A stretch of 64,000 nt of DNA from Octopus vulgaris (Eukaryota): contig OX597814.1 of assembly GCA_951406725.2 (NCBI GenBank), forward strand, positions 32,240,001-32,304,000, given 5' to 3'. Within the stretch, counting starts at the first letter, position 1, and each line of letters opens with the position of its first letter. Positions 2,151 to 49,185 of the stretch are shown here, in pieces. The position numbers were made by a program, and so were the translations under genes. The notes below the pieces were generated by a model, which worked only from the letters and a program-made list of their open reading frames with translations, was not told the origin of the DNA and did not search any database.

Positions 2151-2188
2151 GGTATGACGTTTCGAGCGGAGCTCTTCGTCGGAAACAT
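2151..2188 (-). ncRNA. Minimal type-I hammerhead-like motif (U4C core) in the PLE1 pseudo-LTR
   Basis: Minus strand reads ttt-CCGACGA-A-gagc-tcc-gctc-GAAA-C-GUC; palindromic ACGT stem III; stem I is weak. Confidence 0.6.
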
Positions 2189-3649
2189 AAAGAAGGAAGA
2201 GAGAGGAAAGAAAGATCCCGGAGTGGGCAACGGAGATAGAGAAAAAAAGCTGGTGTTAGCAGTAGCACATGGTGAAAGGCGGATGTTTACGATAACAAGA
2301 GCAAAGTGGGTTTTTAAAGGCAAAAGAGTGGAGACAAGGTTGGTAACGCAACAGATGTGTGTGTATGTGTGAGTGTGTGCGTGTGCGTGTGTGTATGTGT
2401 GTGTGTGAGGCGAGGTAAAAAAACAAAAAATATATGTATGTGTTAGTGTGTGCGTCTGTGTGTAGGCGTGTGAGGTAGGGCGAGACGGTGGTCAGCATAG
2501 CAGCAGCATAGCAGATAAAGGTCAGTAGTGAGAAAAGGGAGGAAGGAGGAAGGGAGGGAGGGGAAGGGGTGGGGGCGTATGTAGCGTGCCAGCGTGTGTT
2601 GAGTAGTAGTGTGTGTGTGTGTCCAGTGTCGTGGTAGTATTAGCGGCGAGTAGATTGAATGTGTGTAAGAGTGATGTATATGTTTAAGCAATGTGTGTAT
2701 ATGTGTGCGCGTGTGTGTAACGAAAAAAGGGGGGGGGGTTAGGAAAAGGACTCCAGCGGAGGGGAAGATGGAAGAGTGGTCCCGCGGAGACGGGCGTGGG
2801 AAAACCCAACGACAAGCGACAGGCCAGGAACGGGCGGGAGGTCTCGTCGGGTCCAAGGGCGAGGTGCATGCGGGCGCATGCGTGCGCGAACCGGCGCAAA
2901 CGCGTGTGTGCGCGAGCCTGCGAGTGTGCGCGTACGTATGTGTGCGTGTGGATGTGTGAGTGTGTCTGTGTGTATGTCTGGGTGGCAGTGTGTCCGATGA
3001 ATGTATGTGAGTATGTGTGTATATATGTGTGTGCATAGATGTATGTCCGTGTGTGTGTGTGTGTGTGTATGTGTGTATGAGTGTGTATGTATGTACGTGT
3101 GGGTGTGGGGAAGTGTGTGTATGTGCATGTGTGTGCGCGAACATACAGGTGTGTGAGTGAGTGCGTGTGTGTGTATGTATGTGTGAGTGTGTATGTATGT
3201 GTGTGTAGGATGCATGTATGTGTATGGGTGTATGTATGCGTGTGTGTATGTATGTATGTGTACGTGCGTGTGTGTGTGTGTATGCGTGTAGGTGTGCGCG
3301 TGTGCATGCGTGCATGTATGTGCGTATGTGTGTGTGTGTGCATGTGTGTGGGTATATATGTGTGTGCGTATATGTGTGTGTATGTGCGTACATGTGTGTG
3401 TGTGTGCATGTGTGTGTGTAGGTGTGTAGGCGTGTGTGTATAGGTGTATGTATGTAAGTATGTATGGGTGTGTCCGTGTATGTGTGTATGTATGTGTGTG
3501 TATGTAGCTGTGTGGGCGTGTGTATATGTGTGTGTATGTAGGTGTGTAGGCGTGTGTATATAGGTGTATGTATGTATGTCTGGGTGTGTCCGTGCATGTT
3601 TGTGTGTGTGTGTGTGTGCATGTGTATGTAGGTGTGTGTGTACGTGTGT

Positions 3650-3750
3650 AATATATATATATATATATATATATATATATATATATATATATATATATAT
3701 ATATATATATATATATATATATATATATATATATATATATATATATATAT
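3650..3750. repeat. (TA)n microsatellite, one of many (e.g. 4313-4422, 8802-8931, 42705-42796, 60431-60522)
   Basis: Direct dinucleotide runs. Confidence 0.98.
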
Positions 3751-3903
3751 GACGGACGTCTTCCAGTTTCCGTCTACCAAATCCTCTCACAAGGCTCTGG
3801 TCTGCCCGAGGCTATTGTAAAGGACACTTGGTATGTTGTAGGACTGAACCCGGAGACATGTGGCTGGATAACAAGCTTCTTACCACATAGGCACGCCTGC
3901 GCC
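3751..3903 (-). mobile_element. tRNA-derived SINE family A, 5' part
   Basis: Matches the head of the full copies (e.g. 26953-27360). Confidence 0.8.
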
Positions 3904-4771
3904 TGTATATGGATACACACACACACACACACACACACACACATATATATATATATATAAAGCTTTACTCTGTCCAAGGCTATAGTAAAAAAAACACTTG
4001 CCATGTAGTGGGAATGAACCCGGAGTCATGTGGGCGGGTAACAAGCTTCTTACCACAAAGTGCCTGTATATGTGTGTGTGTGTGTGTGTGTGTGTGTGTG
4101 TGTGTGTGTGAGTGTGTGCGCGCGTGTGTGTGTGTGTGTGTGTGATTTACTCCTTATACTTCATTAGGTTCAGTTCGAGGTTACGGGTATGCTAAGGCAC
4201 CGTCGTTAGCTTTGCTGAACTTTCACTGCTTGGTATCTCCTCTAATAAGTGGCATTTATTGAATACTGTATTTTGATGTTACTGCGTATGAGTGCGTCTG
4301 TATGAGTGTTTGTATATATATATATATATATATATATATATATATATATATATATATATATATATATATATATATACGTATATATATATATATATATATA
4401 TATATATATATATATATATATATGCATACGCACAAGCACACACATGCAGACGCATCCTGAAACTTCTAAATTTATTCGTTACTATTTATGCATTTGTCAT
4501 TAGGCTTCGTTTTCAGCTTTCTATTGAGGACTCATTTAGGAGTCATTTAGAGTTTTCTTAAGTAACAGATAGAGATCCAGTGTGAAAATAGTTCAGCTTC
4601 AAAGTAGGCTAATTCTGTGTGTATGCATGTTTTTATTTGCTGGTGTTCGCGCATATGTGTGTGTGTGTGTGTGTGTGTGTGTCTCTGTGTGTGTGTGTGT
4701 GTGTGTGTGTGTTTGGGTGAGTACATGTAAACGTTTATGTGTTACTGTTTGTCTTTCATGCATACTCAAGC

Positions 4772-4985
4772 GTGGCGGCGCGTGGTTTAGTGGTCAGGGT
4801 GTTGGATCCCTGATCGTAAAGTAGCGTTTTTGATTCATCAAACTGGTGATGCGTTGTGTTCTTGAGCAAAACACTTCATTCGCCGTTGCTCCAGTCCACT
4901 CAGCAGGCAAGAATGCGTAGTGCTGCGATTGATTGGTGTCCCGTCCAGGTAAGAAATATATACGTCGTGAATCCGGAACACCCAC
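4772..4985 (+). mobile_element. tRNA-derived SINE (family C-related head)
   Basis: ggcgcgtggtttagtggtcagggtg...gttgtgttcttgagcaaaacac; similar to 43075-43310 and 62360-62670. Confidence 0.65.
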
Positions 4986-47384: not shown

Positions 47385-47810
47385 AGGAGTGGCTGTGTGG
47401 AAAGTAGCTTGCTTACCAACCACATGGTTCCGCGTTCAGTCCCGCTGCGTGGCACATTCGGCAAGTGTCTTCTACTATAGCCTCGGGCTGACTAAAGCTT
47501 TGTGAGTGGACTTGGTAGACGGAAACTGAAAGAAGCCCGCCGTATATATATATATATATATATATATATATATTTATATATATATATGTGTGTGTGTGTG
47601 TGTGTGTGTGTGTGTGTGTGTGTTTGTGTGTCTGTGTTTATCCCCCACCATCACGTGACAACCGATGTTGGTGTGTTCACGTCCGCTTAACATAGCGGTT
47701 CGGCAACAGAGACCGATAGAAGAAATCCTGGGATCGATTTGTTCGACTAAACGCGATGCTCCAGCATGACCGCAGTGAAATGACCAAAACGAATAAAATA
47801 ATAAAAGAAT
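47385..47810 (+). mobile_element. SINE family A
   Basis: ggagtggctgtgtgg..gttcagtccc..tgctccagcatg. Confidence 0.85.
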
Positions 47811-47909
47811 ATATATATATATATATATGGTTTTAAATTGATATTAAAATTAAAATTTAATTTATCTCCCTCATTATTTATATATATATATATATATATA
47901 TATATATAT

Positions 47910-48120
47910 CGCCATGTTGATTCGTTAGCTACTGCACGCATTTTTTTTCTCTCCTTCTTTCTGGGTTTTTCTCTCTCTGTGTATCTTTCTGTTGAAGAGC
48001 GTAGGCTCGAAACGTTAAAGACTTGTTTTATTTATATTTCCTGAGCGCCATACTAATACAATTGTTCGTTTGTTTTCCACCTGCCTTCGTCTTTTGTTTA
48101 TTTTCATAAAGCTTCCCGTT
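47910..48120 (+). mobile_element. Short hammerhead-bearing module (motif 47984-48021) flanked by (TA)n on both sides
   Basis: tcttt-CTGTTGA-A-gagc-gtag-gctc-GAAA-C-GTT-aaaga (5-bp stem I); tttcctgagcg downstream. Confidence 0.8.
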
Positions 48121-49034
48121 ATATATATATATATATATATATATATATATATGTATATATATATATATATATATGAGTGTGAGCGTTTGTGTATATACTA
48201 TCCCTATATATTTATGTGTTTCTTTATATGTGCAAGTGCAGGTATGTGTATTATTATTAAGCTTTCTTTCTAGAGTTTTGCCAATAGAGAAAGAGCCCGT
48301 TTCTAACTTAGATCCAATGTATTGGAAAGTTCATTGAAATTTCAACAACTTGGATAGGGTGCTTGTACGTATACATGTGTATAAATGCAACTATTTGGAA
48401 TCAGTGCAAGTGCAGTTCTATGTTTCTGTTTTGTTTTAAGTGTGTATATATGTGTGTATATATGTGTGTATGGGCATAAATCTTTAAGTTTACAAACAAG
48501 ATTAAAGTACTCAAAACAGAAATACACTATAGTAACTTTATTAGAAACATGTTGCTCAGAATTACGCGTGCAATCGCTGATCACATGACAGATTATTATA
48601 TTTAAGATGTTATACTTATAACATAAGATAATTATTAATGGTCAATCGTTGGATAAAAAATATATCAATTAATAATTAATAATGGACAATAATTGCAAAT
48701 GATAAACGTATAACAATACACCACTAAACATAAATAATTGATCGTGAATTTGTGTGTCCTTGAATGTCTGTGCATACGGATACATGTTAGCGGTTGCCAT
48801 TTCCTGTTGCTATAAACAAATGCCTGTAGGTTCAGATATACAAATATACATACACATATACCGATTGATATATATATATATATGTATATATATATATATA
48901 TATATATATATATATAGAGAGAGAGAGAGAGAGAGAGAGAGAGAGACATACACACACACACACACATATATATATATATATATATATATATATATATATA
49001 TTATACATGCATATATACGCATAGTCATATATAT

Positions 49035-49185
49035 GGGGAGAATTCACAAAAGAAAAAGATGAAGACAGCTAGCGTAGACAACAAACAAATGTATTAGTAT
49101 AACGCTCGGGAAGTTAAAAAGTCATTAACGTTTCGAGCCAACGCTCTTCCACAGAAAGGAACACAGAACGAAACAAGGAGAAAAA
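49035..49185 (-). mobile_element. Short hammerhead-bearing module (motif 49122-49158) in TA-rich DNA
   Basis: Minus strand cttt-CTGTGGA-A-gagc-gttg-gctc-GAAA-C-GTT-aatg; cttcccgagcg downstream. Confidence 0.75.

What the first reader, a model, noticed from the sequence alone, without database searches (positions are those of the whole stretch)
2151..49185. Family of short hammerhead-ribozyme modules in (TA)n microsatellites, tied to an ORF-bearing Penelope-like element
Seen: five related motifs (2151-2188 -, 5608-5643 +, 13401-13437 +, 47984-48021 +, 49122-49158 -) share ttt-C[T/C]G[A/T]NGA-A-gagc-loop-gctc-GAAA-C-GT[C/T/A] (gatc instead of gagc at 5621). Each is followed by a ttcc(t)gagcg-like box and a T-rich stretch, and the four solo copies end ~90-100 nt later at TA repeats. 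One lies in the pseudo-LTR of ORF-bearing PLE1; four are 130-210-bp non-coding units. Stem II pairing is largely kept while loops vary (tcc, tct, gtag, gttg). Known: PLE pseudo-LTRs carry minimal type-I hammerheads whose tiny palindromic stem III is thought to need dimerisation. Inference: these are truncated PLE 3' ends or a retrozyme-like non-autonomous family mobilised by PLE RT/GIY-YIG into (TA)n.
Basis: partly seen in the sequence, partly recalled or inferred. Interest (0 to 1): 0.85.

Follow-up and report, generated by a model that had tools for sequence, protein, structure and literature searches.

The report
Penelope tail ends with altered hammerheads
The five motifs are hammerhead-ribozyme-shaped tail ends of two very abundant Penelope-like jumping genes that sit in (TA)n repeats, a known arrangement; here most copies, intact parent elements included, carry core changes predicted to weaken cutting, and many short copies start at one spot that is likely an RNA start.

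Summary
Observation confirmed. The motifs are minimal type-I hammerheads in the pLTR of two related Neptune-type Penelope-like lineages: A (loop UCC, PLE1, 949-aa ORF) and B (loop GUAG, intact 1,075-1,078-aa ORFs elsewhere). Exact 29-30-mers give at least 27,000 copies. Copy 4 is 99.5% identical to an intact B element's 3' end, and long copies of both lineages run into GIY-YIG sequence, so the solos are truncated PLE ends, not a separate family. This scan found that kind before on other genomes. Three additions: (1) B has U at core position 6 in 14,944 copies against 158 with A, intact elements included; PLE1 has U4C plus a broken stem I; 0 of 60 copies start at the cleavage site. (2) 5' ends are not random: 13 of 30 (B) and 14 of 30 (A) fall 75-87 nt upstream of the core, against 0 of 30 upstream pLTRs of B; likely an RNA 5' end. 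(3) Rare ORF-less tandem mini-units (440-620 nt) resemble nascent retrozymes. Cleavage and RNA ends are untested.

The parts
1..1735 (-). 5' part of the PLE1 ORF (949 aa in all: RT with YIDD, CX4CXXC linker, GIY-YIG); it continues beyond the window edge
2056..3650 (-). Upstream pLTR of PLE1: the last ~1.6 kb of the 6,194-nt unit, CA-rich, a partial tandem copy
2151..2188 (-). Hammerhead copy 1, lineage A young; core CCGACGA (U4C), U-U mismatch in stem I, H17 = C at 2156
3651..3750 (.). (TA)50 abutting the 5' end of PLE1; the 3' end outside the window also runs into (TA)n
5538..5742 (+). Solo 3' end of older lineage A (motif 5608-5643, canonical core, one stem II pair broken); starts at the 5' hotspot (-75)
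   Evidence: 89% to long copy L326
8749..8801 (-). 53-nt 3'-terminal stub of PLE1 without the hammerhead, between TA repeats
   Evidence: (95%)
13396..13529 (+). Solo 3' end of lineage B (motif 13401-13437, core CUGUAGA, A6U); starts 9 nt upstream of the core
   Evidence: 93% to long copy L034
47908..48123 (+). Solo 3' end of young lineage B (motif 47984-48021, core CUGUUGA, A6U); starts at the 5' hotspot (-81)
   Evidence: 99.5% to intact element L107; 100% to long copy L027
49030..49196 (-). Solo 3' end of an older lineage B subfamily (motif 49122-49158, core CUGUGGA, A6U)
   Evidence: 82-85% to L034 and L061

Best explanation
The five motifs are the minimal hammerhead segment near the 3' end (pLTR) of two related, very abundant Penelope-like retrotransposon lineages with a Neptune-type linker, and the four solo units are likely 5'-truncated insertions made by the elements' own RT and GIY-YIG proteins at (TA)n. 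Shown: family identity, fixed 3' ends at TA-type repeats, continuity into ORF sequence, intact parents carrying A6U or U4C cores, clustering of 5' ends, rare ORF-less tandem mini-units. Inferred from other PLEs: the endonuclease nicks TA-rich DNA and RT starts at a fixed internal site ~125-135 nt past the core. Inferred here (about 55%): about half of the short copies end 75-87 nt upstream of the core because RT runs off the 5' end of an RNA begun at the pLTR promoter; occasional jumps from there to a downstream RNA position seed the mini-arrays. Inferred (about 65%): the A6U and U4C hammerheads cut weakly or not at all, and retrotransposition uses uncut RNA.
For: Copy 4 is 99.5% identical to the 3' end of intact element L107. 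All 20 loci picked by the B endonuclease sequence carry the A6U motif downstream, 5 of 20 in both pLTRs; 2 of 20 have an unbroken 1,075-1,078-aa ORF. PLE1-type ORFs are unbroken in 3 of 6 loci, two of them with U4C. Older subfamilies also link to EN sequence upstream on the same strand (L327, L324, L040, L065). 60 of 60 copies picked by their 3' end have a TA-type repeat within 22 nt, against 9% background. 5' ends at -75 to -87: 13 of 30 B and 14 of 30 A copies, against 0 of 30 upstream pLTRs of B and 1 of 30 of PLE1. 0 of 60 start at the cleavage site. Literature: solo min-HHRs ascribed to truncated PLEs (PMC4209133); internal RT start, AT-rich nicking and hammerhead mutants not blocking insertion (PMC11167929); start site and internal promoter inside the pLTR (PMC2377424); U4C and A6C lower activity (PMC3088659, PMC7151607).
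Against: No RNA end or cleavage data. Under the simplest run-off model full-length copies should also stop at the start site, and they almost never do; this needs read-through, jumping or circular templates. Mini-array junctions sit at -68, not at -75 to -87. The fold is still conserved where hammerheads are: positions 7 and 17 vary, and one stem I pair switches G-C to C-G between lineages, which fits retained function. A6U itself was not measured in any paper I could read, and the Anolis PLE hammerhead is protein-assisted (PMC11167929). Samples are the first 30 hits along contigs C1-C4, not random draws; the hotspot window was chosen after seeing the data.
Confidence: 0.8

Rival explanations
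1. The 5' clustering is a first-pass RT stall: the protein-bound 3' RNA domain of full-length PLE RNA blocks RT about 200 nt in, so no short RNA is involved.
For: Ends spread over 12 nt, and some overlap AT or TG microhomology with the target.
Against: No shared stable structure at the boundary in five folded representatives. An Inr-like motif (consensus recalled) and a tiny AUG frame sit just inside the boundary in both lineages. Four different downstream donors join to one position, -68.
Confidence: 0.3
2. The short units are a self-propagating non-autonomous family (SINE-like or retrozyme) that is transcribed from solo copies and borrows PLE proteins.
For: Defined 3' ends and clustered 5' ends. 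The solos would contain an internal promoter by analogy with PMC2377424. ORF-less tandem units exist: 8 of 30 junction loci plus an array with five hammerheads at 492-493-nt spacing.
Against: Hotspot copies match ORF-bearing parents at up to 99.5%, and the subfamilies I followed upstream have long members. The four window solos are monomers. The junction pattern has 149 matches against 5,190 3' ends of the same subfamily, so arrays are rare.
Confidence: 0.15
3. The variant hammerheads are fully functional in vivo as dimers (with protein or Mn2+), cut unit-length RNA and circularise it, and so give the more-than-unit-length insertions.
For: Palindromic ACGU, stem I covariation and free positions 7 and 17. 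Upstream pLTRs of variable length. A6C is rescued by Mn2+ (PMC7151607); U4C viroids stay infectious (PMC3088659); the circle model is proposed in PMC4209133.
Against: 0 of 60 ends at the cut site. PLE1 carries U4C and a stem I mismatch in 28 of 29 matched junction copies. Predicted stem I pairing is at most 0.26 in context. Even canonical min-HHR dimers cut poorly (PMC4209133).
Confidence: 0.25

Closest known systems
Minimal hammerheads in pLTRs of metazoan PLEs (Cervera and De la Pena 2014, PMC4209133)
   Same: Type-I layout, extra base between positions 9 and 10.1, G10.1-C11.1, palindromic 15.2/16.2 with no loop 3, a 4-5-bp helix I, thousands of solo copies ascribed to truncated PLEs.
   Different: Core variants A6U (fixed in lineage B) and U4C (most of lineage A); the parts I read name only U3-A8 as a core change. 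Helix II is only 4 bp. No octopus entry in the two supplement files searched (one file not searchable).
Neptune-clade endonuclease-bearing PLEs (Craig et al. 2021, PMC8557442)
   Same: RT then GIY-YIG, CX2-5CXXC linker, partial tandems, heavy 5' truncation, inverted 5' pieces, microsatellite targeting.
   Different: Clade not tested by a tree (Nematis shares the linker). Long CA-rich 3' region. A 5'-end hotspot is not described in the passages read.
Non-LTR retrozymes (PMC7229834; bioRxiv 10.64898/2026.07.22.740005)
   Same: The rare mini-arrays are ORF-less tandem units with one hammerhead each, derived from a pLTR.
   Different: The window copies are monomers. The arrays are 440-620 nt per unit, carry a non-canonical minimal core and have independent birth junctions; circular RNA is not shown.
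Anolis Poseidon element PAc (PMC11167929)
   Same: Fixed internal RT start downstream of the hammerhead, AT-rich target, no sign of ends at the cut site.
   Different: There the core is canonical and overlaps the ORF start; here it lies about 450-750 nt upstream of the ORF.

Membership tests
EN+ Penelope-like element | Single ORF with RT and C-terminal GIY-YIG | tested here: met
   949-aa and 1,075-1,078-aa ORFs with YIDD and the GIY-YIG-type motif; Pfam RVT_1 and GIY-YIG both below the curated cut-off; 837 homologues, the listed ones 44-57% identical
EN+ Penelope-like element | Partial-tandem pLTRs and 5' truncation | tested here: met
Neptune clade | CX2-5CXXC linker before GIY-YIG | tested here: met
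   trait per PMC8557442, shared with Nematis
Neptune clade | RT phylogeny groups with Neptune | not tested
   no named reference proteins were on hand
Neptune clade | Microsatellite targeting | tested here: met
   60 of 60 against 9% background
Minimal type-I hammerhead | Stems I and II, extra base after A9, palindromic stem III | tested here: met
   95.5% of cells paired, one compensatory pair in stem I, none in stem II; other families in the genome keep the layout with different stem II
Minimal type-I hammerhead | Canonical core CUGANGA | tested here: not met
   4 of 5 window copies deviate; 14,944 against 158 in B and 8,355 against 3,575 in A. Met for the older A subfamily.
Minimal type-I hammerhead | Self-cleavage as a dimer | not testable with these tools
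   needs a bench assay; 0 of 60 genomic ends at the cut site
Non-LTR retrozyme | Tandem ORF-less units, each with a hammerhead | tested here: not met
   window copies are monomers; met only by rare arrays elsewhere (L331 and others)
Non-LTR retrozyme | Abundant circular RNA | not testable with these tools
   no read data were laid
Independent SINE-like family | Common 5' end | tested here: inconclusive
   about half of the copies share one; the rest are shorter or run into the parent
Independent SINE-like family | Own lineage, separate from autonomous copies | tested here: not met
   up to 99.5% identity to ORF-bearing elements; small sample, no tree built

The most novel reading that the evidence does not exclude
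The pLTR promoter makes a short RNA that the PLE machinery copies directly, giving tens of thousands of ~200-nt units and, by end-to-end jumps or circles, newborn retrozyme-like arrays; meanwhile autonomous lineages have fixed catalytic-core changes (A6U, U4C) while keeping the fold, so the hammerhead acts as a non-cutting or protein-gated RNA element. This genome would then hold a natural test of what PLE hammerheads are for and of how retrozymes arise.
Probability: 0.3. Interest if true: 0.62.

Novelty: new variant of a known kind. Interest (0 to 1): 0.36.

Why it matters
The basic arrangement is known. The role of PLE hammerheads is stated to be unclear (PMC8557442). Young, intact elements with A6U or U4C cores, next to a canonical sister subfamily, make the question directly testable with natural alleles. 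Descriptor searches that require CUGANGA would miss about 15,000 of these motifs. The 5'-end hotspot and the -68 junctions give a genomic handle on PLE RNA ends and on the proposed birth of retrozymes from pLTRs.

Tried and rejected
Rfam scan of the window: no hammerhead family among the 150 of 373 matches listed; those I read were microsatellite artefacts. A DNA search with copy 4 gave only 6 hits because common words are skipped; pattern searches were needed. Downstream box as a conserved anti-ribozyme switch: predicted pairing 0.01-0.32 in five representatives, not supported. Splicing as the source of the -68 junction: no AG before it. Trans-cleavage by the hammerhead at that site: worked by hand, the product would begin one base earlier and stem I is poor. 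CpG decay as the source of canonical A copies: most of the 30 have their own older flanks; a canonical core does occur in one PLE1 copy (L330). My strict descriptor recovered only 2 of the 5 window motifs, so it was not used for counts. Expression: no RNA holder listed, which is no evidence either way; no read or contig layout was obtained. Lunse et al. (dimer-cleaving PLE hammerhead variants) is not held and may already list such cores. Searches for prior reports: 'hammerhead, A6U, ribozyme', 'cephalopod, hammerhead ribozyme', 'U4C' and a pLTR/start-site search; by their listings none describes this family.

Full report
Observation. The five motifs are present as described. Alignment to long copies gives solo units at 5538-5742, 13396-13529, 47908-48123 and 49030-49196, and a further 53-nt stub of PLE1 at 8749-8801 that lacks the hammerhead. 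The window lies at G000:C1:32240001-32304000 in a 2.8-Gb genome. Its repeat content resembles an octopus genome; that is my recall and comes from no call.

PLE1 (lineage A). The neighbouring DNA shows a partial tandem with a 6,194-nt unit: upstream pLTR (window 3650-2056), a 949-aa ORF, a CA-rich 3' region and a second identical hammerhead, with (TA)n at both ends. The 40 scored matches to its pLTR are 97-100% identical. [quoted passage not shown] No tree was built.

Copy number and cores. Exact patterns give 14,944 matches for the GUAG-loop motif with CUGUNGA and 158 with CUGANGA, and 8,355 and 3,575 for the UCY-loop motif with CCGANGA and CUGANGA; reversed controls gave 0. Thirty-one arbitrarily placed 10-kb stretches held 4 fuzzy copies in 310 kb, roughly in line. 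So U at position 6 is the family state of lineage B. All four bases occur at position 7, and position 17 is A or U in 87 of 88 B rows (these rows include the loci picked by my patterns). One stem I pair is G-C in A and C-G in B; stem II does not vary (14 sequences; relatedness inflates the shuffle control). A third family with a canonical core and another stem II dominates the 100 listed of 5,104 hits of a looser pattern.

Lineage B has its own parents. Locus L050 runs from the motif 1.3 kb upstream into endonuclease sequence. Twenty loci picked by that sequence all carry the A6U motif, five in both pLTRs, at about 61-70% amino-acid identity to PLE1; two have an unbroken ORF. Window copy 4 matches one of them at 99.5%. 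Older A and B subfamilies also have EN sequence upstream on the same strand; of eight long A candidates extended by 8 kb, two showed it and six did not. In PLE1, 28 of 29 matched junction copies have U4C with a U-U mismatch in stem I, and one is canonical (30 loci examined).

Ends. To avoid requiring the motif, I took the first 30 hits of a 3'-terminal pattern for each lineage (2,602 and 5,190 matches). All 60 have a TA-type repeat within 22 nt, against 9% of random stretches (the B pattern itself ends in TTA). None starts at the cleavage site; the nearest start 6-7 nt before it or inside stem II. In B, 13 of 30 start 75-87 nt upstream of C3, 8 run further (4 into EN sequence, a fifth by tblastn) and 9 are shorter or rearranged. 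In A, 14 of 30 start at 76-86; three more start there but have internal deletions, two rows are duplicates and one is the reference itself. Among upstream pLTRs picked at the pLTR-5'UTR junction (149 and 75 matches), 0 of 30 B and 1 of 30 PLE1 start in that window. For B the at-risk contrast is 13 of 21 against 0 of 19 (Fisher p 2e-5; window chosen after the fact). An Inr-like motif (consensus recalled) lies at the boundary, and a tiny AUG frame follows it: four codons in 42 of 47 B rows, and four codons or AUG-stop in 38 of 41 A rows (rows are related copies in which such an AUG was found).

Mini-arrays. Eight of the 30 B junction loci are not full elements: 5'UTR sequence is joined back to the region upstream of the core. 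L331 has four full 492-493-nt units with five hammerheads in tandem, ends at the normal 3' site in (TA)n and has an inverted 5' piece. Four different donors (+375, +399, +423, +1064) join to position -68; other junctions are at -43, -141 and -149. L275 and L291 share flanks and count once; L286 and L287 overlap. These fit RT circling a small RNA, repeated jumps, or multimerisation of a deleted element.

Mechanism. From known PLE biology: nicking of AT-rich DNA and a fixed internal RT start (PMC11167929, parts 1-2 of 4 read), a promoter and start site inside the pLTR (PMC2377424, passages). Inferred here: short copies are mostly run-off products at an RNA 5' end, with a first-pass stall as the main rival. 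The gap between -68 and -75 to -87, and the rarity of hotspot ends in full-length copies, are unexplained. U4C and A6C reduce cleavage (PMC3088659, section 8 and passages; PMC7151607, passages); A6U is extrapolated from these. In-context folding gives stem I at most 0.26.

Comparison. Minimal hammerheads in pLTRs and thousands of solos from truncated PLEs are described (PMC4209133, parts 1-2 of 4 and two supplement files). Retrozymes as pLTR derivatives are proposed (bioRxiv 10.64898/2026.07.22.740005, parts 1 and 3 of 5; supplements closed; PMC7229834, passages). An octopus repeat annotation has no occurrence of 'hammerhead' or 'ribozyme' in its main text (PMC13282606). PMC6765202 and PMC12602865 were seen as passages only. 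Lunse et al. could not be read and may cover core variants. Earlier notes of this scan reached the truncated-PLE reading on other genomes; none matched this sequence or genome.

Verdict. Real and mostly ordinary: truncated PLE ends. The fixed non-canonical cores in intact elements, the 5'-end hotspot and the mini-arrays raise it to a new variant of a known kind, of modest interest until cleavage and RNA ends are measured.

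Noticed in passing
window 17237-20446: A second, unrelated PLE: 471-nt inverted pLTR copies (99%) around a 654-codon open frame with partial RT. It has a hammerhead-like motif at 20286 (+) and 17397 (-) with C at core position 9; two related motifs in other loci have A there.
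   Followed up: partly
L331 (G000:C8:18598500-18604500): ORF-less tandem array of 492-493-nt pLTR-plus-5'UTR units with five A6U hammerheads; a retrozyme-like candidate.
   Followed up: partly
L338-L367: A third family with a canonical minimal hammerhead and a longer loop 2 makes up most of the 100 listed of 5,104 hits; some pairs lie head to head 100-400 nt apart. Parent element not sought.
   Followed up: no
L142:1209-1530: A piece from the middle of a lineage A ORF is joined directly to a short unit at its 5' hotspot, as a template jump would give.
   Followed up: no
L125, L143, L144: Three related lineage A copies have G at position 17, which by recall blocks hammerhead cleavage.
   Followed up: no
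G000:C6:117391925-117400872 and C10:97806625-97818980: Junction hits spaced one unit apart suggest head-to-tail trimers of full B and PLE1 elements.
   Followed up: no
L138, L212, L222, L259, L118: Short units of different subfamilies sit one behind another at TA tails, so insertions nest in earlier ones.
   Followed up: no
window 43523-44781: About 1.2 kb of (ACT/ACC)n with higher-order 36-, 75- and 362-nt periods.
   Followed up: no
window 23581 and 25799: Two identical 113-nt contexts 2.2 kb apart on the minus strand, likely the ends of another repeat.
   Followed up: no
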